A stretch of DNA of 64,000 bases from an uncultured SAR86 cluster bacterium. GTDB taxonomy: Bacteria > Pseudomonadota > Gammaproteobacteria > Magnimaribacterales > D2472. The stretch is taken from positions 9,538 to 73,537 of the forward strand of contig CABZHV010000003.1 of assembly GCA_902525635.1 (NCBI GenBank), read 5' to 3'. Position 1 is the stretch's first letter, and each line of letters begins with the position of its first letter. Below the pieces are notes generated by a model. The model had not been told where the DNA came from. It was given only the letters and a program-made list of their open reading frames with translations, and did not search any database. The position numbers and the translations under genes were made by a program. Positions 15,696 to 32,618 of the stretch are shown here, in pieces.

Positions 15696-15699
15696 TAAA

Positions 15700-16296: not shown

Positions 16297-16371
16297 AAAT
16301 TTATTATGGACAAATGTTGAGAAAAGTAAATCAGATTGATGTAAAAAGACGCTATAAACCCATTTTACATA

Positions 16372-17292: not shown

Positions 17293-17298
17293 TTGGAT

Positions 17299-18592: not shown

Positions 18593-18632
18593 TGTTACAA
18601 ATGTGTTACTAAATGATTAAAGTTTTGTAATT
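18593..18632. promoter_or_regulatory. Pho-box-like array of 7-bp repeats with 11-bp period
   Basis: TGTTACA-aatg-TGTTACT-aaat-GATTAAA-gttt-TGTAATT in the PiT/PPK2 divergent intergenic region. On the minus strand, AGTAACAcattTGTAACA is followed 10 nt later by TAAATA, the same geometry as the E. coli phoA Pho box and its -10. Confidence 0.45.
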
Positions 18633-18691: not shown

Positions 18692-19531
18692 ATGAGTCTT
18701 ATTTCTTTAGATCAAAGTGAGTACAAAAGTTTAGATGCTAAAGCGTATGATCGTGAAAAAAGAAGATTAAGAATTGAGTTACTTAAGCTTCAAGAAGACG
18801 TTATTAAAAATAATAGAAAGTTATGTATTATTTTTGAAGGAAGGGACACTGCAGGAAAGAGTACTGCTATTCGATTTTTTTCTGAATATTTAAGACCTCA
18901 ACACTTTAACTATGTTCAACTTGGCATTCCAACCAAATGGGAATCCTCGCATTGGTTCCAAAGGTGGAAAAAAGCATTACCACGCAGAGGAGAAATTTCG
19001 TTCCTAGACCGTTCCTGGTATACACGTGCAATTACAGAACCGATTATGGGTTATTGCTCTGAAAATCAATATAGAACTTTTATGAAAAAAGTTAATAAAT
19101 GGGAAGATGAACAAATGGATAATGGAGTTGAACTAACAAAGTTTTATTTTTCTTTGTCTAAAGATCAACAAGAGATACGAATGAAGGCAAGAAAGAATTC
19201 AGAATTAAAATATTGGAAGCTTTCAAAAAATGATGAAAAGATCATAACTAAGTGGAATGCATTCACCTTATACAAAGAGCAAATGTTTAATCAAACAAGT
19301 ACCGATAATAGTCCATGGGTCTCTATCAATTCAAATAATAAGATGATTGCAAGACTAACATCACTTAGATACCTCTTAATTAAAACAGAATATGAAGGCA
19401 AAAAGATACTTAAGCCAACAAAATGGTCTAAATCACTTAATAATTATTCATCTAATTTAGAAGGTGTGCAATTCGATAATCTTTCATATGATCAATTCAT
19501 GATTATCAGCAAATACAGTGATAATTCATGA
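18692..19531 (+). CDS. ppk2: polyphosphate kinase 2 (single-domain PPK2)
   Basis: Walker A-like GRDTAGKS and DRSWY motifs. 279 aa. Confidence 0.9.
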   Translation: MSLISLDQSEYKSLDAKAYDREKRRLRIELLKLQEDVIKNNRKLCIIFEGRDTAGKSTAIRFFSEYLRPQHFNYVQLGIPTKWESSHWFQRWKKALPRRGEISFLDRSWYTRAITEPIMGYCSENQYRTFMKKVNKWEDEQMDNGVELTKFYFSLSKDQQEIRMKARKNSELKYWKLSKNDEKIITKWNAFTLYKEQMFNQTSTDNSPWVSINSNNKMIARLTSLRYLLIKTEYEGKKILKPTKWSKSLNNYSSNLEGVQFDNLSYDQFMIISKYSDNS

Positions 19532-20391
19532 AAATTGCATCAGTTGATATAGGAACTAACGCAGTTAAGTCTAAGATTTTTAAAACAACACCTACCTCAA
19601 TTGAGTATATTGATGGAATTCGCTCACCAATTCGACTTGGTGCAGAAGTGTTTAAAAAAGGGAAATTATCTGAAAAAAAACTAAAAGAGTTAACACATAC
19701 TTTAAAAAAATATCAAAAAAAATTTATAAAAGACGGTATTAGTCAATATGAAATAGTGGCAACTAGCGCTCTAAGAAATACCTCAAATTCTGAAGATGCA
19801 AGAAGATATATAGAAAATAAAATTGAACATCCAATTAGAATAATTTCAGGTCTTGAAGAGGCTCAATTAATAAGTTTTCATCCAAAAGCTCAAAAAGAAA
19901 AAAACAAAATGTATGTAGATGTTGGTGGAGGAAGTACTGAGATATATATTTACGACAACTCAAATCATTCAGTTCAATCATTTCAATTAGGTGGTGTTAG
20001 GTTGATGCTTAAAAAGGATGAAAAAAATGAATGGGAAAGAATGGATAAATGGTTAAGCCAATTCAATGATATAAAAGAAATTATAGGAGTTGGAGGTAAC
20101 ATCAGAGCCTTTTTAAGTGCTCATAAATCAAAAAAAATGAAAACCGATGATTTTTTAAAAAAATATAAGCATCTGAGAAATCTTAAAATAGAGGAAAAAA
20201 TTAATGAGTTTGGGTTTGAGAGTGATAGAGCTGACGTCATTGATTTTGCATTAAAAATCTTTGAAAGAATTATTAAAAAATTAGACATTAAAACTATACA
20301 ATCAACTAAATGGGGAGTGTCTGATTCAATTGCAGTTAAAATTTTCCATGAGATTTATTCAAAAAAAATATCAATATATAACGAAAAATGA
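19528..20391 (+). CDS. Ppx/GppA-family phosphatase, N-terminal catalytic domains only
   Basis: ASVDIGTNAVK and DVGGGSTE ASKHA-fold motifs. At 287 aa it lacks the C-terminal domains of long PPX. ATGA overlap with ppk2. Confidence 0.8.
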   Translation: MKIASVDIGTNAVKSKIFKTTPTSIEYIDGIRSPIRLGAEVFKKGKLSEKKLKELTHTLKKYQKKFIKDGISQYEIVATSALRNTSNSEDARRYIENKIEHPIRIISGLEEAQLISFHPKAQKEKNKMYVDVGGGSTEIYIYDNSNHSVQSFQLGGVRLMLKKDEKNEWERMDKWLSQFNDIKEIIGVGGNIRAFLSAHKSKKMKTDDFLKKYKHLRNLKIEEKINEFGFESDRADVIDFALKIFERIIKKLDIKTIQSTKWGVSDSIAVKIFHEIYSKKISIYNEK

Positions 20392-21023
20392 AGTTAAATA
20401 AATATATTTCTGAGTTTTTAGGAACAGCTTTTTTATTCTGTGCAGTTGTAGGATCTGGAATAATGGGTCAATCACTAACAAATGATGAATCGATTATTTT
20501 ATTTGTTAACGCTGTTATTACTTTTTTCGCCCTTTATTTCTTAATCTCATCATTTGAGTCATACAGTAATCATTTTAATCCAGTTGTGTCTCTAGCATTT
20601 TTTTTAAATAAAGAAATTTCTTTTAAAACGTTCTTACTATTTACACTTTTGCAGATTCTAGGAGCAATTATTGGAGTTTTGATAGCAAATATTATGTTTG
20701 ATGTTGAATTATTTCAGTTCTCTAATAAAAACAGGTCTGGATTCAATATTTATCTATCCGAGGTTATTGCTACTTTCGGGTTAGTATTTTTTATATTAAT
20801 TTCAAGTAAAGATAAGATTGCGTTAATTGTTGCATCATATATTGGTGCAGCATATTGGTTTACGTCATCTACTTCATTTGCAAACTTGGCCGGGACGATC
20901 GGACGTATGTTCTCTGATAGCTTTGCTGGTATAAGTCCCGAAAATGTTTTCTCCTTTTGTTTGGCACAGATTGTCGGATCAGTTATAGCGTTTATAGTTT
21001 ATAAATTTTTCTTTAAGGATTGA
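20388..21023 (+). CDS. MIP/aquaporin-family channel with atypical NPA boxes
   Basis: Six TM segments. The first box is NPV (HFNPVVSLAFF) and the second is NLA (SFANLAGTIGR). ATGA overlap with the Ppx-like gene. Confidence 0.8.
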   Translation: MKLNKYISEFLGTAFLFCAVVGSGIMGQSLTNDESIILFVNAVITFFALYFLISSFESYSNHFNPVVSLAFFLNKEISFKTFLLFTLLQILGAIIGVLIANIMFDVELFQFSNKNRSGFNIYLSEVIATFGLVFFILISSKDKIALIVASYIGAAYWFTSSTSFANLAGTIGRMFSDSFAGISPENVFSFCLAQIVGSVIAFIVYKFFFKD

Positions 21024-21486
21024 TTATAAAAATCTCTGTAAAAGATCCCTTCTCGTTTTTTATATAAGTTACTTTACTAAAATCTTTTTCTAACATAAAA
21101 GCTATCTTGTCTGAAACAGAGAAAGATTCCTGTAAATTTTTTGTTTCAAAAGAAATTTTTAGATACTGATCAATATTAGCCACTTCAAGATTTTTTATAT
21201 CTGAATCTATCGAATTCTCTATAAATGATTCGATCTCTGCTGGATCATTTGACTGATTAATCAATAGATTACTTAGTTGTTGAGCTTTTAGAGCTACGTA
21301 TTCATAATCAGATTTAGCTTTATCAAGTTTTTTTGATGAAAAATTCAAGGACTGAATTGTATTACTGACAATAAAAAATAATATTAAAGTAACAACCATT
21401 AATAAAGCAGCCATTATTAAATTTCTTTCTCTATTATTTAAGTTATTCAAAAAATTATTCATTGTAAAATCCAATCTTAATCTCAC
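21013..21486 (-). CDS. gspM: type II secretion system protein M
   Basis: Last gene of the gsp operon, with a single N-terminal TM. The real start is probably the internal MNNFLNN... near 21462. Confidence 0.55.
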   Translation of the reverse strand: MRLRLDFTMNNFLNNLNNRERNLIMAALLMVVTLILFFIVSNTIQSLNFSSKKLDKAKSDYEYVALKAQQLSNLLINQSNDPAEIESFIENSIDSDIKNLEVANIDQYLKISFETKNLQESFSVSDKIAFMLEKDFSKVTYIKNEKGSFTEIFIINP

Positions 21487-22615
21487 CAGAAATCAAATTT
21501 TCATTTGAAGCTACATTCTCACTTATAATTTCGACATTTAAACTTCCAACAGTATTTTTAATCAATCGATATTGAATCTCTGGTAGGCCTTCTAAAGATA
21601 ATACTGCCTCATTTGAATTAAAATCTATATCTACACTTTTAAGATAATTTTCACCTAGAGAAACCAAAAAGTTTAAGTTAGTAAAATTTGAAATAGGATT
21701 ATCTATTTCTGCTAATGGAGTAAGAGATATTTGATTAATAAGTTGATCTATTTGAATCTTTGGAGTCACTACTCTATTAGTATTTTTATCTATTGCTTTA
21801 AAAATATTAAAGGTTTCTGATTCGTAGATGCTTATTTGCTTATTATTTTGAGATACAAATAAGTAAGGAAGAGACAAAGAACAAAATATTAGGAATGCAC
21901 ATAAATATAACTCCATTCTAGTGAAATTAAGTTTATTAAAAATATTTTTAATAGAGACTTCAAACTTAAATAAATTTGGTTCTTTATCGTTTTTATTCTT
22001 AACGAAATCAGAGATATTAAATTTTTTTCTGATCTTAAATGTTTTTAAGTCCTTCACATCACTATCACAATAAATAATTGGATCAAAATCAGGATAATTA
22101 ATTTTTACAGTTTCAATATATTGATTTAATGAATCATGTTCTATTGAACTTCCAGTACCGTTTTTGAAGGAAAATAAGAACTTATTATTAAATTCTGTAA
22201 TAGTATCTTTTCCGAATTGTCTATTTAAAAAATAATCTGGTAAAACTAGAATTTTGCAATTTAATGTATTTAACATGGTATTTAGTTCTTCATACAATGT
22301 TTTATTAATAACAAAACTATTCTCATTAAAAATAAAAAATTCGTTCTTTGAGATATCGTCTACGATAAATGAATCAATATCTGATATGAAATTAGCTAGA
22401 TTATTTTGTTTTGAAAGGTTCTGATTATTCTCAAAAACATAGCTGCTTATTATTGAAGATGGAACAAGATAAATAAGAGTATCTTTTTGACTCAAAGAAT
22501 CAAATTCATTTAAATTTGAAAAAGTGTTTGTTTGTTTGTAATTATCAGAACTGTGATGATATTTACCATTACTTAAACTTAAATTATCGGGATATGCAAC
22601 AATCGTATTCATCAA
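21455..22615 (-). CDS. gspL: type II secretion system protein L
   Basis: Position between gspK and gspM. 386 aa bitopic protein with central TM LYLCAFLIFCSLSLPYLFV. Confidence 0.6.
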   Translation of the reverse strand: MMNTIVAYPDNLSLSNGKYHHSSDNYKQTNTFSNLNEFDSLSQKDTLIYLVPSSIISSYVFENNQNLSKQNNLANFISDIDSFIVDDISKNEFFIFNENSFVINKTLYEELNTMLNTLNCKILVLPDYFLNRQFGKDTITEFNNKFLFSFKNGTGSSIEHDSLNQYIETVKINYPDFDPIIYCDSDVKDLKTFKIRKKFNISDFVKNKNDKEPNLFKFEVSIKNIFNKLNFTRMELYLCAFLIFCSLSLPYLFVSQNNKQISIYESETFNIFKAIDKNTNRVVTPKIQIDQLINQISLTPLAEIDNPISNFTNLNFLVSLGENYLKSVDIDFNSNEAVLSLEGLPEIQYRLIKNTVGSLNVEIISENVASNENLISGEIKIGFYNE

Positions 22616-23586
22616 ATTCCATTATAAATTCTTGAGATAATAAAACCATTGTTATTACCCTCATAAATTATTTTACTTGTAGAAGATGATACAAAATCTT
22701 CAAAAATTATTTCTGTATTAATTTCATAAATATTTGAATTAAATTTGATTTCTCCGTATGCATCCTCAAAATTCATATCAGGAAAATTATTTTTAAAGTT
22801 AATTAAATCATCGAAGCCTGACTCTGGAATATTGTCCAAGATATATTCAGCCTCTTGTAAGGATATATTTGGAAATAAAGAGCTTAATACATAAGTATCC
22901 TTTAAATTAAGAGTATTAACGTTAAGAGATATTTGACTAGCTTCAGGAATAGCACAAAAATTTTTTTTTATTATTGACCAATCAATTTGTTTTACCGCTG
23001 GAATACTTTTTAATTCGTCTATTGAGACCATTAATCTCATTCCAGTATATTCTTTTGGGTTATGAAGAGGTCCAGAATAATAATAATCTTCAAGGCCATA
23101 AGCCCTAGGATTTGAATCAAAATCAATCCAATCAATGGTCTGATCTATAATTTCCTCAATAACATTATTATCAACTTCATTTAACGAAAGTATTTTTCTG
23201 ATTGATGCAATAGAATTCTCATTTTCAACAAATTCACCTTCATTAATAATCACGATAGAATTTATATTAAGACAATTGCTAGCATCTGATATTTTTCCGA
23301 TAATATCCGCTCCATTGAGATTAAAATAAAAATTATCTTTTAGAATTGGATTATTTTTTGAAATTTTGCTTCGATTGAATTTAAGTTCTTTTTCAATTTT
23401 TTCTTTTGATAGTGCTTCAATATTTCTAAAAATATTCAAAGATAGCGTTTGAAACTCAATGTACTCTGCTCTTTTAAGGGATAAAAAATATTTATTACCA
23501 AATAAAACTGCAACCGATGAAAGCAAGAGTACTATCAATAAGATAGAAATTAAAACTATACCTTTAGTTCTTGAATTCATAATCAA
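22612..23586 (-). CDS. gspK: type II secretion minor pseudopilin K
   Basis: N-terminal hydrophobic helix KGIVLISILLIVLLL. Size and operon position fit GspK. Confidence 0.7.
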   Translation of the reverse strand: MIMNSRTKGIVLISILLIVLLLSSVAVLFGNKYFLSLKRAEYIEFQTLSLNIFRNIEALSKEKIEKELKFNRSKISKNNPILKDNFYFNLNGADIIGKISDASNCLNINSIVIINEGEFVENENSIASIRKILSLNEVDNNVIEEIIDQTIDWIDFDSNPRAYGLEDYYYSGPLHNPKEYTGMRLMVSIDELKSIPAVKQIDWSIIKKNFCAIPEASQISLNVNTLNLKDTYVLSSLFPNISLQEAEYILDNIPESGFDDLINFKNNFPDMNFEDAYGEIKFNSNIYEINTEIIFEDFVSSSTSKIIYEGNNNGFIISRIYNGI

Positions 23587-24157
23587 TATTAGGTTCGATT
23601 ATCCATACATAATCTTTATTATTTTTGGTAAATTCTAGTTTTATTAATGTAGGTATTTTTCTTTCAGTGATTGGTGCCGATGGCCATCTTTCATACCATG
23701 TACTTTGATACATAAATCTAAGATCTAAATCTGATATATCTTCAATCAAAACAGTTTTAATATTTTCATCCACATCATATGGATTAGAAGAATAAAATTG
23801 TTTTCTAAGGAGTTTATTTCCATCAAGTTGATATTCGACTCTTTTTATTGGTGATATATCATTTGATATAGATTTAATTTTTGTATTAAAAGTCATTATA
23901 TTCTCAGTATTATTTCCAATAAATGTTCCATTTATTTGATTACCATAAAAATCTCGCAGTGGAACATTAATAATCTGTCTTATGTCTCGTTTAAGTGTGA
24001 TTGAAGAAAAATTTAGTTTTCTTGCTGATTGGAGTCTGTCTGATGAAAGGCGCTCTGTTTCCAGAGATGATTGTAGTATATTTGATGAAATAACGGCAAT
24101 CATTGAAAGAATAATTAAAGATACTAAAACTTCAATTAACGTAAAACCTTTTTTCAT
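23564..24157 (-). CDS. gspJ: type II secretion minor pseudopilin J
   Basis: Prepilin leader MKKGFTLIEVLVSL. 197 aa. Confidence 0.8.
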   Translation of the reverse strand: MKKGFTLIEVLVSLIILSMIAVISSNILQSSLETERLSSDRLQSARKLNFSSITLKRDIRQIINVPLRDFYGNQINGTFIGNNTENIMTFNTKIKSISNDISPIKRVEYQLDGNKLLRKQFYSSNPYDVDENIKTVLIEDISDLDLRFMYQSTWYERWPSAPITERKIPTLIKLEFTKNNKDYVWIIEPNIDYEFKN

Positions 24158-24537
24158 TTTGTGTAATAACCATTAATGGAATAAATATATGTTTCCGAAC
24201 CATCAAGTTTTACAGAAATTTTATACTCAAAAAAATTGTCGTCTTGGCTATTAATGATAGTTTCATCCCATATCCATTTTTGTCCACCCATTATCATCTG
24301 GCCAGTTCTATCTATTGGTTTTAATGATTTTTCAATTGTATTTATTAATGAAATTCTATTATTTGCGACTTCTTTAGCTAGATATCTTTGCTCTAAGTCA
24401 TAGCTTGATACTGCAGTTGATAAAATAAGGTTGTATATAGTAATAACGGATACACTTAAAATAAATAAGGCAACTACAACTTCAACTAGACTAAAGCCTT
24501 TGTTAATAACTGATAATTTCATCTGTGATTTGTCCAT
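24154..24537 (-). CDS. gspI: type II secretion minor pseudopilin I
   Basis: Prepilin motif KGFSLVEVVVAL. 127 aa. Confidence 0.8.
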   Translation of the reverse strand: MDKSQMKLSVINKGFSLVEVVVALFILSVSVITIYNLILSTAVSSYDLEQRYLAKEVANNRISLINTIEKSLKPIDRTGQMIMGGQKWIWDETIINSQDDNFFEYKISVKLDGSETYIYSINGYYTK

Positions 24538-25051
24538 TGCTAAAAATAATAAGCCTTTGAATATAATTTGAGTGATAAATATCTATTTGACCACCAGAGT
24601 TTTCTCCAGATGGATAAAAAATCATCATCGGCAATTCAAGCATCTGGTCATTCAATTCTATAATTGATCCATCTTCAAATTTAAATGTTTTCCTTAGCGA
24701 GGATGTGTCTGACCAAAATGTGTTTTTGTAATTAGAATCTATTTTATTTTTTTTATCGTCTGTAAGATATTCTGCGAATTGTTTATCTGAACTTAGATAT
24801 AGGCCAATAGTATTACCAGTAATAATACTCTCCTCTGTTAAAAAATTTACAGTTCTTTGAAATGAATTAGATTGTTTTTCAATTGAATTTAACGAACTAA
24901 AGTTTACAGTAATTAATGTTGTCGTTATTCCAATAATAATTAATACAACAAGTAGCTCAATTAAAGTAAATCCTGATCGATATTGTTTATTGTTGCATCC
25001 AGTTTCCAAAATCTGCGTCCTCACCAGATCCTCCTTCAACTCCATCAGCAC
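24503..25051 (-). CDS. gspH: type II secretion minor pseudopilin H
   Basis: SGFTLIELLVVLIIIG prepilin motif. The track start overlaps gspG by 65 nt. A GTG preceded by AAGGAGGA, or a TTG further downstream, is the more likely start. Confidence 0.75.
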   Translation of the reverse strand: MLMELKEDLVRTQILETGCNNKQYRSGFTLIELLVVLIIIGITTTLITVNFSSLNSIEKQSNSFQRTVNFLTEESIITGNTIGLYLSSDKQFAEYLTDDKKNKIDSNYKNTFWSDTSSLRKTFKFEDGSIIELNDQMLELPMMIFYPSGENSGGQIDIYHSNYIQRLIIFSNGQITDEIISY

Positions 25052-25424
25052 CTAAAGTATATAAGTCATATTTTTGAGAGCGTCTAGAGGGATATTCATA
25101 GATATATTCTCTTCCCCATGGATCTTTTGGAATTGCAGAAATGTAGCCACCTTGAGGATAAAGAAAAGGATTCTTTAATTCAGGGTGAGGAGTTACAAGA
25201 GCATCTAAGCCTTGCGACGTTGAAGGATATGACAATTCATTAAATCTATATAGTTCAAGTGCTTTATTTGTATTAGCCATGTCAGCCCTAATTTTTTCGA
25301 GATTTGCTCTTTGAAAAACTGGATCCACACTTACAACTACAATGGTTGCTAAAATACCTAAAATAACCAAAACAGCCATTAATTCTATTAGTGTAAAACC
25401 TTTTTCATTGTCTTTGGTTTTCAT
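24987..25424 (-). CDS. gspG: type II secretion major pseudopilin G
   Basis: KGFTLIELMAVLVILGILA leader and helix. 145 aa with a conserved GspG C-terminal region (DPWGREY). Confidence 0.95.
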   Translation of the reverse strand: MKTKDNEKGFTLIELMAVLVILGILATIVVVSVDPVFQRANLEKIRADMANTNKALELYRFNELSYPSTSQGLDALVTPHPELKNPFLYPQGGYISAIPKDPWGREYIYEYPSRRSQKYDLYTLGADGVEGGSGEDADFGNWMQQ

Positions 25425-26611
25425 ATTGCTAGAGTATTCATTTGCATAATTGGTATTAGTATAGCTAGAACTATCATCATAATAAATCCACCCATAAAAA
25501 TTATTACTATTGGTTCAAGAAGTGATAGAAATACGGATCTTTTATTTTCAATTTCAGATTTCATAAAATTAGAAACCTTATTAAACATTTTCTCAAGATT
25601 GCCAGATCTGTATCCACTTGCAATTAATTGGATAAAAATATCTGGGAAAATTTCATTTTGTTTCATAGTAATAATAAAGTCTTTTCCTTCGACTACATCA
25701 TTTCTAGCATTCATGATTATGTTTGATAAATATTGATTATTAAAGATTTTTGAGCATTCTTCCAAAGCAATATCAAGATTTGTTCCAGAGGCTAAAAGTA
25801 ATTCCATAGTGCTTGAAAATCTTTCTAACTCTGAATTTAAAATAAAATTACCCAAGAAAGGAATAGCTAGAATCTTTTTATCAACTAATAATTTATTTTT
25901 TTCTTTTTTGGTATATTTTTTATAAAGGTAATAAAAACCCACAGATAAAAAAGTAATAACCAGTAGTATGGGAATAATGTTATTTGAAATTCCAATTAAA
26001 AACTTTGTTATAAATGGTAATTCAGCTCCTGCTTTAATAAATTGATCAATAACTTGAGGCAAAACAAATGCTAGCAAAGATATAACTACAATAAATGAAA
26101 ATCCAATTAATATGAGTGGATAAGTTAAGGCTGATATAACTTTTTGCCTTATAGATGCGCTTTCTTCTAGGTAATCTGCAAGTTTGGAAAAAACAGTATC
26201 TAAATTTCCTGAAGAGTCTCCTGCTGATACCATCGATACATAAGTGTCTGAAAAAATACCTGGAAATTTTTTCATTGAATTTCCTAACCTTTTACCTTGT
26301 ACAAGGTCTTCTTTGAGATTGTATAAAATTTGAATCAAGTTTTTATTTTTAGTCTGTCTAGCTGTTATATCGATTGAATCGACAATAGGAGTACTTGCTT
26401 CAAGCAATGTTGCAAGTTGCCTAGTCATCAAGACAATATCTTTATTTTTTATTCTAAGAGTCTTATCTAAGTTTTTAGACTCTGATATTTTTAATGGTGT
26501 TAATTTGAGGTCTTTTACAAGTTTTCTAGCTTCTCTTTCTGAATCAGCGCTAAGAATACCTTTTTTCTTAATACCAGCATCATTAATAGCTGTATAACTA
26601 TATGATGGCAT
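25421..26611 (-). CDS. gspF: type II secretion inner-membrane platform protein F
   Basis: 396 aa with a duplicated GspF/PilC domain architecture and three TM segments. Confidence 0.9.
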   Translation of the reverse strand: MPSYSYTAINDAGIKKKGILSADSEREARKLVKDLKLTPLKISESKNLDKTLRIKNKDIVLMTRQLATLLEASTPIVDSIDITARQTKNKNLIQILYNLKEDLVQGKRLGNSMKKFPGIFSDTYVSMVSAGDSSGNLDTVFSKLADYLEESASIRQKVISALTYPLILIGFSFIVVISLLAFVLPQVIDQFIKAGAELPFITKFLIGISNNIIPILLVITFLSVGFYYLYKKYTKKEKNKLLVDKKILAIPFLGNFILNSELERFSSTMELLLASGTNLDIALEECSKIFNNQYLSNIIMNARNDVVEGKDFIITMKQNEIFPDIFIQLIASGYRSGNLEKMFNKVSNFMKSEIENKRSVFLSLLEPIVIIFMGGFIMMIVLAILIPIMQMNTLAI

Positions 26612-28097
26612 CTTCTTTGATATTATTTACTCTTATTATTTCTTCGCATGACGTTACCCCACTAACAATTAAGTCAATGGAAGCTTTATCTATAGACTGA
26701 TTGTCTTTAAATACATAGTCTGAGATTTCATTTTCTGAGGCATCGTTATGAATTAAATCTTTTAATGTCTTGTCTATCTGAATACATTCAGCAATAGCGA
26801 TTCTTCCCTGATAACCAGTATGATTGCATTCATCACATCCATTTGCAGAAAAAACAGATTTATTTTTATCTAATCCAAAAATATCTACAGACTCAGTGCT
26901 TGGTTTATTTTCAGTCTTACAATATGGGCAAAGCCTTCTTACCAACCTTTGTGAGATTATTGTTCTTAAACTTGATGCTAACAAAAAGGACTCAATTCCC
27001 ATATCTCTAAGCCTAGTTATTGCAGCAACTGCATTATTGGTATGAACAGTAGATAGAACAAGATGACCAGTTAAACTTGATTGAATTCCAATTTGAGCAG
27101 TTTCAGTGTCTCTCATCTCGCCAACCATAACCACATCTGGATCTTGTCTTAAGATTGCTCGCAATCCTTTTGCAAATGTATAGCCTGTTTTTGTATTGAC
27201 TTGTGTCTGGCCTATACCGTTAAGTGTGTATTCAATGGGATCCTCAACAGTGAGAATATTTTGAGAGGAATCATTTAAATACCGTAAACCAGCATAAAGT
27301 GTTGTAGTTTTTCCTGATCCAGTAGGTCCTGTAAATAGAATAATGCCTTCAGGATTTTTTAATGAACTTTTATAGTTTGAAAGTATTTTTTTTGGTAATC
27401 CTAAGTCATCAATATTAATTTGAGCTGATTGTTTGTCTAAAATTCTAAGTACAATTCTTTCACCATAAGATGATGGAAGTGTTGATACTCTTACATCAAC
27501 ATTTTTATCTCCAAGAGATAAGGAGACTCTGCCGTCTTGAGGTAATCTTCTTTCAGATATATCAAGGCCAGATATTATTTTAATTCTTGAAATTAGAATA
27601 GAGGCAATCTTACTATCTTGTTTAAGAATTTCTTTAAGAATACCATCAATCCTAAAACGTATAATTACAAAATCCTCATAGGGTTCAAAATGAATATCGG
27701 AAGCCCTACTTTTTATAGCTTGACTGATAACACCGTTAATTAACTTAATTATTGGTGCGTCATTATTTCCACTTAAAAGATCCTCTGTGGCATTTATACT
27801 TCCTGCAAAATCTTGCAAATCAAAGTTATCTGTTAATTCCTCCGATATATTTTCTTGATGATCACTTGTTGTAAATGAATTAGTAAGAATTTCGTTAAAT
27901 TCATCTGGATCACATAATTTAAATGTAAATTCAGAGTCTAAAAACCTTTGAATTTCCTGGTATATATTTAGCGATATTGGTTTAGGTGATGAAACTATGA
28001 TTCCCTTTCCATTCTGTACAGCAATAACTTCATTCTCTTTTACAAAATCATAAGGAAAAATGTTTGTCTGAATGTTTTCTTTAATAGAATCACTCAT
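26598..28097 (-). CDS. gspE: type II secretion ATPase E
   Basis: Walker A GPTGSGKTT and the tetracysteine motif CPYC...CDEC. 499 aa. Confidence 0.95.
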   Translation of the reverse strand: MSDSIKENIQTNIFPYDFVKENEVIAVQNGKGIIVSSPKPISLNIYQEIQRFLDSEFTFKLCDPDEFNEILTNSFTTSDHQENISEELTDNFDLQDFAGSINATEDLLSGNNDAPIIKLINGVISQAIKSRASDIHFEPYEDFVIIRFRIDGILKEILKQDSKIASILISRIKIISGLDISERRLPQDGRVSLSLGDKNVDVRVSTLPSSYGERIVLRILDKQSAQINIDDLGLPKKILSNYKSSLKNPEGIILFTGPTGSGKTTTLYAGLRYLNDSSQNILTVEDPIEYTLNGIGQTQVNTKTGYTFAKGLRAILRQDPDVVMVGEMRDTETAQIGIQSSLTGHLVLSTVHTNNAVAAITRLRDMGIESFLLASSLRTIISQRLVRRLCPYCKTENKPSTESVDIFGLDKNKSVFSANGCDECNHTGYQGRIAIAECIQIDKTLKDLIHNDASENEISDYVFKDNQSIDKASIDLIVSGVTSCEEIIRVNNIKEDAII

Positions 28098-28099
28098 TA

Positions 28100-29944
28100 T
28101 TAGTCTTTAGGATTAGTAAGATCAATAATAGTATTATTCTTTAATTGTTGCTCAGCTTTGAAATAATTATATTTTTCAAGTGAAATCTCATTTGCAATAT
28201 CTGAATTAGTTAGAATAGTTGGTTTTAAAAAAACCATAAGATTTTTGGTGCTTGTGCTAGTGGACGAGGATTGAAAAATCCTTCCAAGAAGAGGTATTGA
28301 TCCTAGAAGTGGTACTTTTGAAACAACTTCTTGAGTATCCTCATCTATAAGTCCACCCAAAACAATAATTTGATTATTATCAACTAAAACAGTCGTTTCT
28401 ATTTCTCTTTTATTTGTTATTAGATCTAACCCACTTTGAGATATTCCAGCAACTCCTGAAACACCCTGTTTTATATTAAGAATAACTGATGCTCCCTCAT
28501 TAATTTGAGGCGTAATTTCCAATTCTATTCCAACTTCTTGTCTGGAAGTTGTTCTAAACGGATTTGAATTATTGGTTCCAAGACTCTCTCCAGTTGTTAT
28601 AGGAATTTCTTGTCCAATAAAAAGTCTTGCTGGTTCATTATCCATAGCTAATATAGATGGAGTTGATAAAATATTAGAATCAGTATCTTCTGCAATTGCA
28701 TTAAGAATTCCAACAAAGTTATCTTTTCCCTTAGTTAAATCACCAAAGCCTGCAACTAAACCCTGGGTGTTTAATAAAGATGATACCGCCGTATTAGTTA
28801 GTGTAACGTCACTTTCATTATCTGCGGCTCCTGCTATTGCAAGAAGGTCTGCTCCAGAACCTGAAAATCTAGTAATGCCTATTGGAATGCTGTCCTCATC
28901 ATTGCCTGAATAGATAGCTTCAACTCCAAGTCTTGTTGCAGCTTTTTCTGATAAATCAACCACAATTGCTTCAACAAGAACTTGTGCCCTTCTTATATCT
29001 AATTTAGAAACAATATTCCTGATAGAATTCAAATTATCTTCGGCTGAAGATATAACCAAAGAATTTGTTTTTTCATGATGAGTAATTACTGTCTTTTTTC
29101 CTTCAGCATCACTTATAAAGCTTCCAGAAATTGAGTTTAGTATGGCTGATATATCTTTAGCTTGAGCATATTTTAAATAAATAACATCCATAGAATCATC
29201 ACTCATTATGTCTTTATCTAAAGAATTTAAAGTATTGGTAATATTATTAGTTATTAGATCATTGGCTGATAAAATCACAGAATTTGACGGTGTGAACGGG
29301 ATAGCAATAAATTGATTGATAGTCGGATTGTTTTGTGTTTTAAGTCTGTCCAAAATTCTAACAGCTTCGATTGATGATAAATTATTAAGCTTCAGAATGC
29401 TTATCTTTGCAGTATTGTTTTTATCTAAATCATTTAATAGATTCCTAATGCGATTAACATTGCTAGCTCGGTCAACAAGCAAGATAGAGTTTATTGATGC
29501 AATGTTAGAGAGATGAGACTGTCTGCCAGTAATTGGTTTTATCATTGGCAAAATTTCTTCAGATGATCTATTTATCAATGGTATAACGGCTGTTTCAAAA
29601 CCTCCTAAAGAAGATTCGCTTGTCATATCTCGAGTCGCTTCATTTTCAGGAACAACCCTAAGGAATCCATCTTCAGAAATTGCACCGAACCCATTGACCT
29701 GGATTGTTCTTAAATACACATCCCAAACCTGATCCCTATTTAAGTTCGCATTTGAGTAAATAGTAATTTTTCCTTTTACTCTTGGATCTAAAACAATTGT
29801 TTTTTTTGAAAATTGAGCTATATCTTGTGTAACTTTTTTTATATCAACATCTTCATAATTTAATATAAATGAGTCCTGGGCATTAATATTTCCAAATGAA
29901 GTTAATAGAACACAAATTAATTTAAATTTTAAAAGACTTCTCAT
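28100..29944 (-). CDS. gspD: type II secretion secretin D
   Basis: Signal peptide, N-domains, and a C-terminal secretin core (VPLLGSIPLLGRIF). 614 aa. Confidence 0.95.
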   Translation of the reverse strand: MRSLLKFKLICVLLTSFGNINAQDSFILNYEDVDIKKVTQDIAQFSKKTIVLDPRVKGKITIYSNANLNRDQVWDVYLRTIQVNGFGAISEDGFLRVVPENEATRDMTSESSLGGFETAVIPLINRSSEEILPMIKPITGRQSHLSNIASINSILLVDRASNVNRIRNLLNDLDKNNTAKISILKLNNLSSIEAVRILDRLKTQNNPTINQFIAIPFTPSNSVILSANDLITNNITNTLNSLDKDIMSDDSMDVIYLKYAQAKDISAILNSISGSFISDAEGKKTVITHHEKTNSLVISSAEDNLNSIRNIVSKLDIRRAQVLVEAIVVDLSEKAATRLGVEAIYSGNDEDSIPIGITRFSGSGADLLAIAGAADNESDVTLTNTAVSSLLNTQGLVAGFGDLTKGKDNFVGILNAIAEDTDSNILSTPSILAMDNEPARLFIGQEIPITTGESLGTNNSNPFRTTSRQEVGIELEITPQINEGASVILNIKQGVSGVAGISQSGLDLITNKREIETTVLVDNNQIIVLGGLIDEDTQEVVSKVPLLGSIPLLGRIFQSSSTSTSTKNLMVFLKPTILTNSDIANEISLEKYNYFKAEQQLKNNTIIDLTNPKD

Positions 29945-30345
29945 AAATTATTACCAACACGATTCTCAATTCTATATAATTTTTCTTTATTGCGAAATAT
30001 TACTTCATCTTTTGTTACTTCTATTAATTCATAAGTTCCTTCTAATTTTTCACCTTTAGCGACAACATACTCTTTATTGCCTTTCTTTAATATTACAGAT
30101 GAATCACTTTTACCAGATCTATATCCGATAAGCTGATAATCAAAAGAAGAAATATTATTAATAGCCTCTGTATTACTAATAAACTCTTTAGAATTTGAAT
30201 TAAAAGATATATCAGCCATATTTGAAACATTTATATTTTTAATATCAGGTCGGTTGAATATCAAGCTCATATTTGATGCAATAAGATACAGCGCAGGCAG
30301 AGCCAGAGCAAAGATAATAATCTTTTTAATTTTGATAAAGTCCAT
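29941..30345 (-). CDS. gspC: short GspC-like protein (TM plus HR domain, no PDZ)
   Basis: First gene of the operon. N-terminal TM and a C-terminal HR-like beta region (VILKKGNKEYVVAKGEKLEGTYELIEVTKDEVIF). Only 134 aa. Confidence 0.55.
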   Translation of the reverse strand: MDFIKIKKIIIFALALPALYLIASNMSLIFNRPDIKNINVSNMADISFNSNSKEFISNTEAINNISSFDYQLIGYRSGKSDSSVILKKGNKEYVVAKGEKLEGTYELIEVTKDEVIFRNKEKLYRIENRVGNNL

Positions 30346-30494
30346 AAGTAAAAAAGAGCTTTTATTTTAGCTCATTTTTGGACTCAATACATTTACTGAC
30401 TAATTCCAGATGCCTTTATAACTTTATTAAGTCTTCCAGACTTCATAAATATGTGAAATTTTTTCCAAATTGTTGTAATCACTTCACTCTCCAC

Positions 30495-30534
30495 TGTTGC
30501 ATTTATGAAACATAAATGTGACATTTGTGTAACA
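30495..30534 (-). promoter_or_regulatory. Pho-box-like array of four 7-bp repeats with exact 11-bp period
   Basis: The minus strand reads TGTTACA-caaa-TGTCACA-ttta-TGTTTCA-taaa-TGCAACA (compare E. coli CTGTCAT-AAAA-CTGTCAT). Lies between the sensor-kinase stop (30568) and the gspC start (30345). Confidence 0.45.
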
Positions 30535-30567
30535 TTCTAGATAATGTAGGTAATAAAGTAAAGGTTT

Positions 30568-31917
30568 TTATTGAGAAATAGGGACTGTAAACCAAAAAAT
30601 AGAGCCTTTTTCTGGTTTAGATTCTAGTCCGACTTCACCATTAAGGTTATTTACAAGATGTTTTACTATAGCAAGCCCAAGTCCGCTACCTTGGTTATCA
30701 GTAGCTCTTGCAGAAGCTGTTCTAAAAAATCTACTAAAAATGTGATCTCGATCCTCTGGTGATATGCCCTCTCCATTATCTTCAATGGCAACTCTAACAT
30801 AATCGCTACCCTCATTTGATGTTGATATTGTTATTTCAGATCCACTTTCAGAATATTTGATAGCATTATCAACTAAATTATTCATAATTCTTTCAAATGC
30901 TTGAAAATCTGCACTTACAGAACCTTTATGATTTGGTAAATACTTAATATCTATATTTTTTTTCTTTGATAAACTTAAAATTGATTGAGTAAATTTTTCA
31001 AAAAATCTATTCAAATCAATTTCCTCAAAATTAAGTTTAAGCTCACCATATTCAATTCTCGATAAATCCAGCAAAGATGAGACCATGTCGGTCAATCTTT
31101 CAGCATTATGAAGTATTGCTTTTGCAAATATTTTTGCCTGATTCTTATCTTCTAGTGCGCTATCAATAAGAGTTTCAGAATTTGCTCTAATGACACTAAT
31201 TGGTGTCCTTAACTCATGTGATAAATTTGAAATAAAATCCCTTCGCATAGAATCCAAGCTTCTTAATTGAGTAATATCATGAACTACTAAAATATTTTCT
31301 CTTGTATTCTTACTTTGATTTATTGTTGCTAAGACCCACCTTATAGAATTATCATTTAATTCAATTTCAAACTCTATATCTGCTTTTTTTTTCTTTTTTG
31401 ATCTTCTGTACAGATACTCAATAGATTTAATGCCTAGATCTTTTATATTATCTTCATGTTTACTTTTGAGATTAAGGATTTGTGAGAATTGATCATTTTC
31501 AAATGTTATAACTCCATTACTATCTGTTACAACAATACCCTCCCCTAGATCATCAAGAACAGAACCAAATTGATCTCTTTGTTTGCCAATTAAATTAATA
31601 TTATTTTTTAAATTTTCTGATATTTCTGAAATACCTTTAGCTACATTACCAAATTCGCCTGTATCTTTTCTTAAGGCCTTAATAAATTTCTTTTTTGTGC
31701 TTCCTTTTGCGATTTGAGATGTTAAAGCCTCTAAAGTTGATATATTTTTATATGTAAGATTACTAAAAATTGTAGAGATAATTAATGTTGTTATTAATAT
31801 GGCGGGGATTAGAAATAAATTTGAGAGATCTGCATTTTTACTTATTAGGTAAGAAAAAAGAACGCCAATACCTATTGATATAAATACTACTATAAATATT
31901 CTCAATCTAAAAAGCAT
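30568..31917 (-). CDS. sensor histidine kinase, PhoR-like
   Basis: Two N-terminal TMs with a short loop, a PAS-like region, H-box SHELRTPISV, and an N/G1/G2 ATPase domain. 449 aa. The PhoR assignment is an inference. Confidence 0.7.
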   Translation of the reverse strand: MLFRLRIFIVVFISIGIGVLFSYLISKNADLSNLFLIPAILITTLIISTIFSNLTYKNISTLEALTSQIAKGSTKKKFIKALRKDTGEFGNVAKGISEISENLKNNINLIGKQRDQFGSVLDDLGEGIVVTDSNGVITFENDQFSQILNLKSKHEDNIKDLGIKSIEYLYRRSKKKKKADIEFEIELNDNSIRWVLATINQSKNTRENILVVHDITQLRSLDSMRRDFISNLSHELRTPISVIRANSETLIDSALEDKNQAKIFAKAILHNAERLTDMVSSLLDLSRIEYGELKLNFEEIDLNRFFEKFTQSILSLSKKKNIDIKYLPNHKGSVSADFQAFERIMNNLVDNAIKYSESGSEITISTSNEGSDYVRVAIEDNGEGISPEDRDHIFSRFFRTASARATDNQGSGLGLAIVKHLVNNLNGEVGLESKPEKGSIFWFTVPISQ

Positions 31918-31925
31918 TTATTATC

Positions 31926-32618
31926 TTAGTCTGGAGTTCTAGAAAATTTATATCCAACACCTCTTATGGTTTGGACATATTTACCCATTGAGCCAAGCTT
32001 CTCTCTTAATCTTTTTATATGAGTATCAACTGTTCTAGTTGTAACCTCTACATTGTATCCCCACACTTCAGATAGTAAGTGATCTCTTGATTGTACTCTT
32101 CCTCGATTATCTACAAGCTGTCTTAATAGACGAAATTCAAGAGCCGTAAGTATTATTTGTTCAGAGTTTACGTGAACCTCATGTGAATCGACATCGATTA
32201 CCAAATCACCAAACTTTCTCTCTACCTCAACGAGATCTTTCTTTTTATGACTTCTTTTTAGAACAGCTTTAATTCTTAAGATTAACTCTTTTACACTAAA
32301 AGGCTTAGTGACATAATCATCAGCACCCAGCTCAAAACCCAAAAGTTTGTCAACTTCATCATCTTTTGCGGTTAATATAATAATTGGAATCGCTTCTGTC
32401 TGAATATTGTTTTTTATCTGTTTACATAGATCTAATCCAGATCCATCAGGCAACATTAAATCTAAAATTATTAATTCAAAGTTATTGTTATTTATTTTTT
32501 GATTAGCGTCATTTAAAGAACCAACAGCTAACACTTTAAATCCTTCACGGCCTAAATTATATTCTAGGTTCTTACGAATATCTGGTTCGTCTTCAACAAC
32601 TAGTAAATTCTCATTCAT
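31926..32618 (-). CDS. OmpR/PhoB-family response regulator (PhoB-like)
   Basis: Receiver domain (VVEDE...DLMLPDGSG...KP) plus winged helix (RTVDTHIKRLREKL...RGVGYKF). Close in layout to E. coli PhoB. Confidence 0.75.
   Translation of the reverse strand: MNENLLVVEDEPDIRKNLEYNLGREGFKVLAVGSLNDANQKINNNNFELIILDLMLPDGSGLDLCKQIKNNIQTEAIPIIILTAKDDEVDKLLGFELGADDYVTKPFSVKELILRIKAVLKRSHKKKDLVEVERKFGDLVIDVDSHEVHVNSEQIILTALEFRLLRQLVDNRGRVQSRDHLLSEVWGYNVEVTTRTVDTHIKRLREKLGSMGKYVQTIRGVGYKFSRTPD

What the first reader, a model, noticed from the sequence alone, without database searches (positions are those of the whole stretch)
30346..32618. T2SS operon preceded by a four-repeat, 11-bp-periodic Pho-box-like array and directly downstream of a PhoR/PhoB-like pair
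In the 222-bp gap between the sensor-kinase stop and gspC, the minus strand reads TGTTACA-caaa-TGTCACA-ttta-TGTTTCA-taaa-TGCAACA. That is four heptamers at exact 11-bp spacing with A/T-rich 4-bp spacers, the architecture of PhoB-binding Pho boxes (E. coli CTGTCAT-AAAA-CTGTCAT). The adjacent response regulator is PhoB-like. A Pho-regulated T2SS has a precedent in the P. aeruginosa Hxc system, which secretes the phosphatase LapA under phosphate limitation. This window also encodes a signal-peptide beta-propeller phytase that could be cargo. Two caveats apply. I could not place a convincing -10 at the canonical 10-nt distance. The heptamers are quasi-palindromic (TGTnACA), so their orientation is ambiguous.
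Basis: partly seen in the sequence, partly recalled or inferred. Interest (0 to 1): 0.7.

Follow-up and report, generated by a model that had tools for sequence, protein, structure and literature searches.

The report
SAR86 Pho boxes guarding a tiny gene
The repeat array is real and is very probably the phosphate-regulator (PhoB-type) binding site of the uncultured marine bacterium SAR86, but it sits on the promoter of an unannotated 29-codon gene, not on the secretion-system operon.

Summary
The four 11-bp-spaced heptamers exist exactly as described (minus strand 30534-30495) and are far beyond chance. The window is from the marine SAR86 clade. Three of the four boxes are conserved in eight related genomes. 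The same box pair, as a same-strand direct repeat, lies upstream of the phosphate transporter gene in 41 of 60 distinct SAR86-like metagenome contigs, 10 nt before a -10-like element. It also precedes phytase genes in relatives. A matrix trained only on transporter promoters ranks boxes 1-2 second in the window. The adjacent regulator pair is PhoB/PhoR-like. So "Pho box" is supported.

"Pho-activated T2SS" is not. The array abuts the ribosome-binding site of a conserved, unannotated 29-codon ORF (30482-30393). A hairpin separates this ORF from gspC. In SAR86A-type genomes the ORF and its boxes lie about 8 kb away with their own terminator, while gspC follows the kinase without boxes. One relative has the same regulator pair next to the phosphate genes with no T2SS. 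A conserved sigma-70-like promoter ends where box 1 begins, which is operator geometry and suggests repression. This is a new member of a known kind, plus a lineage-specific small gene of unknown function.

The parts
31926..32618 (-). OmpR/PhoB-family response regulator, PhoB-like
   Evidence: It has Response_reg and Trans_reg_C domains. The best NCBIfam hit is PhoB TIGR02154 at 244.7 bits, below the 296.2 cut-off. PDB hits include RegX3 and the PhoB DNA-binding domain 1gxp.
30568..31917 (-). PhoR-like sensor histidine kinase
   Evidence: It has PAS, HisKA and HATPase domains. The best NCBIfam hits are PnpS, WalK and PhoR, all below cut-off. The N-terminus has two hydrophobic segments joined by a loop of about 7 residues, as in E. 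coli PhoR (my reading).
30557..30562 (-). -35-like hexamer TTTACT
   Evidence: This is part of the consensus promoter hit TTTACT-17-TAGAAT. CTTTAC(T/A) is conserved in 9 genomes while the 17-nt spacer varies.
30534..30539 (-). -10-like hexamer TAGAAT; its last T is the first base of box 1
   Evidence: It was found. Relatives read TAGAAT, TAAAAT or TAAGAT at the same place.
30517..30534 (-). Pho boxes 1 and 2 (TGTTACA caaa TGTCACA), the strongest pair
   Evidence: The pair scores 19.5 with the matrix trained on PHO4 promoters only. This is the second-best hit in the window; the next unrelated hit scores 13.0. Relatives read TGTCACA-N4-TG(T/A)CACA.
30495..30512 (-). Box 3 (TGTTTCA, conserved as TGTnnCA), spacer TAAA, and the degenerate box 4 (TGCAACA)
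   Evidence: (A)TAAAT at 30506-30501 is the only candidate -10 for an activator reading. Boxes 2-4 form an imperfect dyad.
30393..30482 (-). Unannotated 29-codon ORF (VITTIWKKFHIFMKSGRLNKVIKASGISQ) with SD GGAG at 30492-30489
   Evidence: The ORF is open in 9 genomes and its indels are multiples of 3. Variable columns by codon position are 11, 7 and 20 of 28, and the other frames carry 20-22 stops. Homologues with their own boxes occur at another locus in L007 and L008. There are 7 hits among 1.84 billion representative proteins: five are short SAR86-like peptides or read-throughs, and two are weak hits in long proteins that I did not inspect. It has no Pfam or NCBIfam match.
30356..30373 (-). 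Hairpin GAGCTAAAATAAAAGCTC followed by a T-run, with a -10-like TAAAAT (30369-30364) in its loop, just before the gspC ATG
   Evidence: It is a terminator-like hit. The 61-nt region folds at -14.5 kcal/mol, z=-3.5. The stem is conserved in relatives. L012 has a hairpin of different sequence at the same place.
21013..30345 (-). T2SS operon gspC-D-E-F-G-H-I-J-K-L-M
   Evidence: GspD scores 440.5 bits and GspG 143.9 bits, both above cut-off. GspE and GspF are best hits just below cut-off. Pfam finds T2SSI, J, K and M. GspC matches only weakly (E=0.0011), but one homologue cluster carries PF11356. The prepilin peptidase lies at 37905-38750.
18593..18610 (-). Pho box of the phosphate transporter promoter (AGTAACA catt TGTAACA), followed by 10 nt and then TAAATA (18582-18577)
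   Evidence: The matrix score is 21.1.
14637..18546 (-). PHO4-family phosphate transporter, porin, TetR-like protein and signal-peptide beta-propeller phytase
   Evidence: Pfam finds PHO4, Porin_4 and Phytase. The TetR match is weak. The phytase N-terminus reads as a signal peptide.
18692..20391 (+). PPK2 and Ppx (polyphosphate metabolism), divergent from the transporter
   Evidence: Pfam finds PPK2 and Ppx-GppA.

Best explanation
The array is a set of Pho boxes, that is, head-to-tail binding sites for the phosphorylated PhoB-type response regulator encoded just upstream. In this SAR86 lineage the box is (T/n)(G/T)T(C/A)ACA repeated every 11 bp. At the phosphate transporter gene a box pair takes the place of the -35 element, 10 nt before a -10-like element. 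That is the classical activator layout. At the locus of the finding the boxes begin at the last base of a conserved sigma-70-like -10 and run to the ribosome-binding site of a conserved 29-codon ORF. A regulator bound there would cover the transcription start and early transcribed region. The most likely effect is repression of the small ORF when phosphate is scarce. The secretion operon lies beyond the ORF, behind a hairpin, and has its own -10-like element, so it is at most indirectly coupled by read-through.

Shown: the sequence anatomy, its conservation, the recurrence of the motif at phosphorus genes, and the relocation of boxes and ORF together. Inferred: which protein binds, the direction of regulation, and transcript boundaries.
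For: The array is non-random.

Conservation in 9 SAR86 genomes: the -35-like element, a variable 17-nt spacer, the -10-like element, three boxes, GGAG and the ORF.

PHO4 promoters: 41 of 60 distinct upstream regions carry the box pair ending 42-51 nt before the ATG, followed by 10 nt and then YWAAT. Position 4 is C or A in both boxes on the same strand (16C/12A/1G and 15C/13A/1T). This means a direct repeat, as expected for an OmpR/PhoB-family regulator.

Independent matrix: the window's top hits are the PHO4 promoter (21.1) and boxes 1-2 (19.5); the next is 13.0. The 95th percentile of the shuffle maxima is 18.0.

Other box sites in relatives precede TetR-phytase, phytase, a secreted 141-aa protein next to a PhoD-like phosphatase, and a lipoprotein plus TonB receptor directly after the kinase.

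The regulator pair is PhoB/PhoR-like. The recognition helix is identical in the 60%-identical regulator of L113, where the same boxes occur.

Boxes travel with the ORF. In L007 and L008 the ORF homologue lies between the DPRP gene and the o38966 homologue. It has a TTGACA-17/18-TAACAT/CACAAT promoter, boxes starting right after the -10, and a strong terminator. There, gspC follows the kinase without boxes.

Precedent: in S. meliloti, PHO boxes just upstream of the translation start accompany PhoB-dependent repression of orfA-pit (PMC3131613).

Field data: SAR86 pit transcripts rise under P depletion (PMC12981677).
Against: There is no binding or expression data.

Promoter calls in 30% GC DNA are weak evidence; the scan gave 3 hits against 1.7 expected. 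The boxes themselves resemble promoter hexamers: TAACAT is -10-like, and TTGACA is the reverse complement of TGTCAA. This makes the SAR86A-type promoter assignment ambiguous.

In the main clade an activator reading also fits: boxes 1-2, then 10-11 nt, then (A)TAAAT, which would leave a leader of about 12 nt that includes the SD.

The regulator and kinase score below NCBIfam trusted cut-offs for PhoB and PhoR.

I could not examine the rest of any SAR86 genome for a second phoBR or for pstS promoters.

The hairpin before gspC lacks a T-run in several relatives, so read-through into gsp may be substantial.
Confidence: 0.6

Rival explanations
1. The array is a PhoB-activated promoter that drives the T2SS operon, together with the small ORF as its first gene, under phosphate starvation. 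The system would then be like Hxc of P. aeruginosa, with the phytase as cargo.
For: Boxes 1-2 are followed after 10-11 nt by (A)TAAAT, close to the PHO4 promoter geometry. The boxes are in the sense orientation. Only 47 nt separate the ORF stop from the gspC ATG, and the hairpin lacks a T-run in L001, L005 and L013. The operon lies between phoBR and a phosphorus gene cluster that includes a signal-peptide phytase. Hxc secretes LapA (PMC7035377); its induction under phosphate limitation is from my own knowledge.
Against: Boxes 3-4 would lie over the -10 and the start site. Box 3 is conserved, although the equivalent spacer in PHO4 promoters is not. SAR86A-type ORF copies have no -10 at the activator distance. 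SAR86A-type genomes keep kinase-gspC adjacency without any box. L113 has phoBR and the phosphorus genes without a T2SS. A conserved hairpin and a -10-like element precede gspC.
Confidence: 0.22
2. The boxes are operators of the TetR-like repressor encoded between the porin and the phytase, not of the response regulator.
For: In relatives, three boxes overlap the promoter of the TetR-like gene itself, with the last box 6 nt before TAAACT. This is the classical autoregulation layout. Every box position seen could be read as an operator. The heptamers are near-palindromes.
Against: Both boxes prefer C or A at the central position on the same strand, and box A keeps only its 3' part. This means direct repeats, not the inverted repeats used by TetR dimers. 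The TetR assignment is itself weak (Pfam E=0.003; best NCBIfam hit 8.8e-05, far below cut-off). The window's own TetR-like gene has no box upstream. An 11-bp head-to-tail array is the signature of the OmpR/PhoB family (established knowledge).
Confidence: 0.08
3. The repeats act in RNA, as a 5' leader hairpin or protein-binding repeats of the small-ORF mRNA, or they are a terminator for the kinase gene.
For: Boxes 2-4 form a 13-pair imperfect dyad. The array would be transcribed from the upstream promoter. All boxes are in the sense orientation.
Against: Strict 11-nt phasing matches the DNA helical repeat. PHO4 boxes lie upstream of the -10-like element, outside the transcript under that reading. 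The hairpin is A/U-rich and weak. There is no Rfam match. There is no T-run after it on the sense strand.
Confidence: 0.05
4. The array is a chance low-complexity repeat in AT-rich intergenic DNA.
For: The genome is about 31% GC, and short A/T-rich repeats are common.
Against: Shuffles give a mean of 0.07 matches against 3 observed. The array is conserved across genomes whose flanking spacer has diverged. The motif recurs at phosphorus genes.
Confidence: 0.01

Closest known systems
E. coli Pho box (CTGTCAT-A(A/T)A(T/A)-CTGTCA(C/T)) bound by PhoB; pstS has two Pho boxes, i.e. four repeats (from my own knowledge)
   Same: Both have 7-nt direct repeats with a 4-nt A/T-rich spacer and an 11-bp period. 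Both share the TGTCA core; relatives read TGTCACA. Both lie in sense orientation. At the SAR86 PHO4 promoter the pair lies 10 nt before the -10-like element, as in E. coli. The regulator is 43% identical, with recognition helix RTVDTHIKRLR against RTVDVHIRRLR.
   Different: In the upstream repeat the conserved part is T(C/A)ACA rather than TGTCA. At the locus of the finding the boxes lie downstream of a -35/-10 pair and abut a ribosome-binding site, instead of replacing a -35.
B. subtilis PhoP boxes TT(A/T/C)ACA at 11-bp spacing, and Streptomyces PHO boxes GTTCACC (from my own knowledge)
   Same: Upstream-box variants such as CTTCACA, TTTAACA, ATTCACA and GTTCACA match these consensus repeats. 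PhoP both activates genes and represses others (tagA, tagD).
   Different: The phylum is different. The SAR86 proximal box keeps the gammaproteobacterial TGTCA.
S. meliloti orfA-pit, repressed by PhoB, with PHO boxes just upstream of the translation start (PMC3131613)
   Same: The boxes lie next to the start codon rather than upstream of the promoter.
   Different: In SAR86 the Pit/PHO4 gene has the activator layout. The start-proximal boxes belong to a 29-codon ORF.
P. aeruginosa Hxc T2SS with LapA, induced under phosphate limitation (PMC7035377, and my own knowledge)
   Same: A T2SS lies in a phosphorus-acquisition neighbourhood with a candidate secreted phosphatase.
   Different: No Pho box is demonstrably attached to the gsp promoter. 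A sister clade has none. Cargo is untested. Regulation may even be opposite.
Small proteins under two-component control that feed back on the system, such as MgrB with PhoQ or PmrD (from my own knowledge)
   Same: A very small ORF lies directly beside the kinase gene and carries the regulator's binding sites.
   Different: This ORF has no transmembrane segment. It is strongly basic (pI about 11.4). Its function is untested. It has no sequence similarity to any known family.

Membership tests
PhoB (phosphate regulon response regulator) | Receiver domain plus OmpR/PhoB-type winged-helix domain | tested here: met
   Pfam finds Response_reg and Trans_reg_C.
PhoB (phosphate regulon response regulator) | Score above the curated equivalog cut-off | tested here: not met
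   TIGR02154 scores 244.7 against a cut-off of 296.2. NF053854 scores 234.5 against 270. PhoB is nevertheless the best hit.
PhoB (phosphate regulon response regulator) | Conserved DNA-contact residues of the recognition helix and wing (R193, T194, H198, R201, R203, R219 in E. coli numbering, from my own knowledge) | tested here: met
   RTVDTHIKRLR...IRGVGY aligns with RTVDVHIRRLR...VRGTGY. The differences are V197T and R200K. These residues are also common in related regulators, so the evidence is weak.
PhoB (phosphate regulon response regulator) | Adjacent PhoR-type kinase: two transmembrane segments with a short loop, then PAS, HisKA and HATPase | tested here: met
   The kinase in L012 and L113 has an extra sCache and HAMP domain.
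PhoB (phosphate regulon response regulator) | Activity controlled by phosphate supply | not testable with these tools
   Only indirect evidence exists: SAR86 pit and phoBR transcripts respond to phosphate in a mesocosm study (PMC12981677).
Pho box | Two or more 7-nt direct repeats with 4-nt A/T-rich spacers at an 11-bp period | tested here: met
   The direct-repeat nature is shown.
Pho box | Recurs upstream of phosphate-acquisition genes of the same lineage | tested here: met
   PHO4 transporter promoters carry it in 41 of 60 cases. It also precedes phytase, TetR-phytase, and a gene next to a PhoD-like phosphatase. pstS, phoX and phoU promoters could not be examined.
Pho box | Replaces the -35 element, about 10 bp upstream of the -10 (activator layout) | tested here: inconclusive
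   This is met at PHO4. At the array of the finding, a -35/-10 pair lies upstream of the boxes, and only a weak alternative -10 lies 10-11 nt after box 2.
Pho box | Bound by phosphorylated PhoB | not testable with these tools
   This needs EMSA, footprinting or DAP-seq.
Pho-regulated T2SS (Hxc-like) | Complete T2SS gene set | tested here: met
   gspC-M and a prepilin peptidase are present.
Pho-regulated T2SS (Hxc-like) | Pho box at the promoter of the secretion operon | tested here: not met
   The boxes belong to the small ORF. A hairpin and a separate -10-like element precede gspC. SAR86A-type loci have no boxes before gspC.
Pho-regulated T2SS (Hxc-like) | Secretes a phosphatase under phosphate limitation | not testable with these tools
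   A phytase with a signal peptide lies 5.3 kb from gspM. This is adjacency only.

The most novel reading that the evidence does not exclude
The 29-residue basic peptide is a dedicated feedback component of phosphate signalling in SAR86. It would be made when phosphate is sufficient and shut off by PhoB~P. It would act on PhoR, PhoB or the PHO4 transporter, playing a PhoU-like or MgrB-like role. The lineage was reported to lack the PstSCAB transporter, through which PhoR normally senses phosphate (PMC3358033). The peptide's gene and its Pho boxes move through the genome as one cassette.
Probability: 0.1. Interest if true: 0.7.

Novelty: new member of a known kind. Interest (0 to 1): 0.45.

Why it matters
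SAR86 is one of the most abundant heterotrophic bacteria of the surface ocean and has not been studied genetically. None of my three SAR86 paper searches turned up a described Pho box, phoBR regulon or Pho-linked T2SS for this clade.

A usable Pho-box motif, (T/n)(G/T)T(C/A)ACA-N4-TGT(C/A)ACA, would let the phosphate-starvation regulon of SAR86 be predicted directly from genomes and metagenomes. It would also help interpret metatranscriptomes.

The work corrects an attractive but unsupported inference that the T2SS is phosphate-induced. It also exposes a conserved, essentially unannotated small gene tied to the Pho boxes, which is a concrete target for experiments.

Tried and rejected
- **Over-fitted matrix.** A matrix built from the array itself, spacers included, missed the PHO4 site. 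I replaced it with a matrix trained only on PHO4 promoters.
- **One-mismatch pattern search.** On its own it is not significant: 9 matches against 4.4 expected. The PHO4 site needed comparative support.
- **Rfam.** No match over 30200-30700.
- **Small ORF.** It has no Pfam or NCBIfam family. Its exact sequence is not in the 15-billion-protein collection. The search for homologous proteins refuses queries under 40 aa. The representative search with a 33-aa extended form gave seven hits; the five I read are SAR86-like.
- **GspC homologue search.** It returned almost only 84-99% identical microdiversity, so it added no new array variants.
- **141-aa protein.** It is a lineage-restricted hypothetical protein and so does not help decide the activation or repression question.
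- **Autoregulatory box upstream of the regulator gene.** I looked at 32619-32684 and 34365-34469 and found none.
- **CTTTACT as an extra phased box.** I rejected this because it is 28-29 nt from box 1, which is out of phase.
- **Eye-reading of promoters.** I attempted to settle activation against repression this way. It is unreliable because the boxes mimic -10 (TAACAT) and reversed -35 (TTGACA) hexamers.
Full report
**Observation**

The minus strand reads TGTTACA caaa TGTCACA ttta TGTTTCA taaa TGCAACA at 30534-30495. This lies inside the 222-bp gap between the kinase stop codon (30568-30570) and the gspC ATG at 30345. The pattern TGTNNCA-N4-TGTNNCA has three exact matches in the window, all in the array. 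Dinucleotide shuffles give a mean of 0.07, and 0 of 100 shuffles reach 3.

**Organism and neighbourhood**

A scan of species-representative genomes with the kinase returned 13 orthologous loci at 58-86% identity. Ten are titled SAR86; the other three carry Gammaproteobacteria or Methanobacteriota labels. The window is about 31% GC.

The genes on the minus strand are as follows.
- **Regulator pair.** An OmpR/PhoB-family regulator lies at 31926-32618 and a PAS-HisKA-HATPase kinase at 30568-31917.
- **Secretion operon.** gspC-D-E-F-G-H-I-J-K-L-M occupies 30345-21013.
- **Phosphorus gene cluster.** Beyond the operon lie an aquaporin-type channel, Ppx, PPK2, a PHO4/Pit-family phosphate transporter, a porin, a weakly TetR-like protein, a signal-peptide beta-propeller phytase and, further on, a glycerophosphodiester phosphodiesterase.

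The rest of the window holds no further obvious phosphate genes.

**Is the two-component pair PhoBR?**
- PhoB is the regulator's best NCBIfam hit, but it scores below the trusted cut-off (244.7 against 296.2). The kinase's best hits are PnpS, WalK and PhoR, also below cut-off.
- The regulator is 43% identical over its full length to E. coli PhoB. The recognition helix reads RTVDTHIKRLR against RTVDVHIRRLR.
- PDB relatives include RegX3 and the PhoB DNA-binding domain.
- The kinase starts with two hydrophobic segments joined by about seven residues. It therefore has no periplasmic sensor domain, as in E. coli PhoR (my reading).
- In a more distant relative (L113, transporter 63% identical) the orthologous pair lies directly beside Ppx-PPK2-PHO4 with no secretion genes between.

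I regard PhoBR identity as likely but not proven. I could not scan a whole SAR86 genome for a second pair.

**Is the heptamer the lineage's Pho box?**

A one-mismatch search found a second site, TGTTACA aatg TGTTACT, in the divergent PHO4/PPK2 intergenic region. On its own it was not significant. I therefore fetched 79 metagenome loci encoding relatives of the transporter.
- **Recurrence.** In 41 of 60 distinct upstream regions a pair nnT(C/A)AC(A/T)-N4-YGT(C/A/T)ACA ends 42-51 nt before the ATG. It is followed after 10 nt by a conserved Y-W-A-A-T block. This is the activator layout known from E. coli, where the Pho box replaces the -35 about 10 bp before the -10 (established knowledge).
- **Direct repeat.** The central position is C or A in both boxes on the same strand (16C/12A/1G and 15C/13A/1T). 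The upstream box keeps only its 3' part. The unit is therefore a direct repeat, not an inverted one.
- **Independent scoring.** A matrix trained only on 27 such transporter sites, leaving out the contig identical to the window, gives two top hits in the window. They are the transporter promoter (21.1) and boxes 1-2 of the finding in the sense orientation (19.5). The next hit scores 13.0, and the 95th percentile of mononucleotide-shuffle maxima is 18.0.
- **Other sites.** In 726 kb of related loci, further strong sites precede the TetR-like/phytase genes, a phytase gene, and a secreted 141-aa protein beside a PhoD-like phosphatase. The lipoprotein plus TonB receptor inserted after the kinase in L012 are also preceded by a two-box site (TTTCACA taaa TGTTTCA), which I read directly from the sequence.
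- **Field data.** A mesocosm study reports pit transcripts, mostly from SAR86 and Pseudomonadales, rising under phosphate depletion (PMC12981677). The first SAR86 genome paper reports only two ABC importers, neither for phosphate (PMC3358033).

The Pho-box reading is therefore well supported in silico.

**What the array actually precedes**

I aligned the kinase-gspC gap from nine genomes. The conserved blocks, in order, are:
1. CTTTAC(T/A).
2. A variable 17-nt spacer.
3. TA(G/A)AAT.
4. TGTCACA-N4-TG(T/A)CACA-N4-TGTnnCA-TAAA-TGnnnnn.
5. GGAG.
6. A 28-29-codon ORF.
7. AAAATGAGCTAAAAT...GCTC.
8. The gspC ATG.

Several features support it as a coding gene.
- It is open in all nine genomes.
- Its indels are multiples of three.
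- It varies mostly at third codon positions (11, 7 and 20 of 28 columns).
- The other two frames carry 20-22 stops.

It has no family match and is absent as an exact sequence from the large protein collection. It has seven hits among 1.84 billion representative proteins. The five I read are SAR86-like, and the other two are weak hits in long proteins that I did not inspect.

Box 4 ends 12 nt before its start codon.

**The boxes belong to the small ORF, not to gsp**

SAR86A-type loci (L007-L010) keep the order regulator-kinase-gspC. Their gap is only 66-150 nt and lacks both array and ORF.

In L007 and L008 a homologue of the ORF (MSILKKQWNRFHIFMKSGRIHKVWNSMPK) lies about 8 kb away, between the DPRP gene and the o38966 homologue. 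It is preceded by TTGACA-17/18-TAACAT/CACAAT and the boxes TGTAACA tt TGTCACA gttt TGTAACA. It is followed by a strong terminator.

Boxes and ORF thus move as one cassette, whereas the secretion operon does without them.

Between the ORF and gspC there is a hairpin (30373-30356). The surrounding 61 nt fold at -14.5 kcal/mol with z=-3.5. The stem is conserved in relatives, and L012 has a hairpin of different sequence at the same place. The loop holds a -10-like TAAAAT that resembles the TAAACT before gspC in SAR86A-type loci.

Pho control of the T2SS is therefore undemonstrated. At most it is indirect, through read-through.

**Direction of regulation**

The consensus scan finds TTTACT-17-TAGAAT on the minus strand at 30562-30534. 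Both hexamers are conserved while the spacer is not. The last T of the -10 is the first base of box 1. The boxes would then cover roughly -1 to +40.

The SAR86A-type copies show the same order: -35, 17-18 nt, -10, then boxes immediately after.

This is operator geometry. A precedent exists in S. meliloti, where PHO boxes just upstream of the translation start go with PhoB-dependent repression of orfA-pit (PMC3131613). B. subtilis PhoP also represses from such positions (my own knowledge).

I therefore lean towards repression of the small ORF under phosphate starvation, at about 55-60% given that the regulator binds. Three caveats apply.
- Promoter-like hits are common in AT-rich DNA (3 found against 1.7 expected).
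- TAACAT and TTGACA can be read as parts of boxes.
- In the main clade (A)TAAAT lies 10-11 nt after box 2, which would allow activation with a leader of about 12 nt. That reading leaves the conservation of box 3 unexplained and fails in the SAR86A-type copies.

**Rivals**
- **TetR-like repressor.** Three boxes overlap its own promoter in relatives, which suggests it. The direct-repeat statistics and the weak TetR assignment speak against it.
- **RNA-level role.** The 11-nt phasing and the position of the PHO4 boxes upstream of the -10 make this unlikely. There is no Rfam match.
- **Chance.** This is excluded.

**Comparison with the known**

The motif sits between the E. coli Pho box (TGTCA core, 11-bp period) and the Gram-positive PhoP boxes (TT(A/C/T)ACA, GTTCACC). 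This comparison rests on my own knowledge.

None of the three SAR86 paper searches returned a description of a SAR86 Pho box, or of a Pho link to its T2SS or to this ORF.

The finding is a new member of a known kind, namely a Pho regulon operator in an uncultured lineage. It comes with a lineage-specific small gene of unknown function attached.

Hxc-like membership fails on the one feature I could test, a Pho box at the secretion operon's own promoter.

**Verdict**

Interest is moderate. The SAR86 Pho-box motif and the Pho-box-linked small ORF are useful and testable. The headline claim of a phosphate-induced T2SS is not supported by the comparative evidence.

Noticed in passing
window 30393-30482 (-): A conserved, unannotated 29-codon ORF with a GGAG ribosome-binding site lies between the kinase and gspC. 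The peptide is strongly basic (pI about 11.4) and has no family match. Homologues appear confined to SAR86.
   Followed up: yes
L007 about 1217-1306 and L008 about 1222-1311: In SAR86A-type genomes the small-ORF homologue lies between the DPRP gene and the o38966 homologue. It has its own boxes and a strong terminator. This means boxes and ORF form a relocatable cassette.
   Followed up: yes
window 30356-30373 (-); L012 17114-17134: A hairpin sits directly before the gspC start codon. The position is conserved in L012, but the stem sequence there is different (ATGGGCTAC aat GTAGCCCAT). It could be a terminator, an insulator or an mRNA 5' stabiliser; I cannot tell which.
   Followed up: partly
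L004 (NYXO01000057.1): This contig is deposited as 'MAG: Methanobacteriota archaeon'. It carries the SAR86 regulator-kinase-smORF-T2SS locus, with the kinase at 81% and the Gsp proteins at 95-99% amino-acid identity to the window. It is almost certainly a mis-binned bacterial contig.
   Followed up: partly
L113 1-7251: A more distant relative has this order: acyl-CoA ligase, boxes, a 141-aa secreted protein, the regulator, a kinase with sCache and HAMP domains, Ppx, PPK2, boxes, PHO4. There is no T2SS. The secretion operon therefore looks like an insertion between phoR and the phosphate genes, or was lost here.
   Followed up: partly
L012 1901-2326 and L113 1028-1453: A lineage-restricted 141-aa protein with a signal peptide and no Pfam match is preceded by 3-5 phased boxes that run up to its ribosome-binding site. 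In L012 it lies next to a PhoD-like phosphatase.
   Followed up: partly
L012 11326-17100: A 991-aa lipoprotein (no Pfam match) and a TonB-dependent receptor are inserted between the kinase and gspC. They are preceded by TTTCACA taaa TGTTTCA directly after the kinase stop. This may be a Pho-regulated outer-membrane uptake pair.
   Followed up: partly
window 15700-16296 (-): A weakly TetR-like 198-aa protein is encoded between the porin and the phytase. In several relatives its gene is preceded by three boxes (for example TGACACT agtt TGTCACA tgaa TGACACA). The window's copy has none.
   Followed up: partly
window 30495-30523: Boxes 2-4 form a 13-pair imperfect dyad because the spacers TTTA and TAAA are reverse complements. 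I could not explain why box 3 is conserved if only boxes 1-2 act as the Pho box.
   Followed up: no
window 18593-18632 (+): Read towards PPK2, the transporter Pho box continues as two weak phased units (GATTAAA gttt TGTAATT). I did not resolve whether PPK2-Ppx share the regulation.
   Followed up: no
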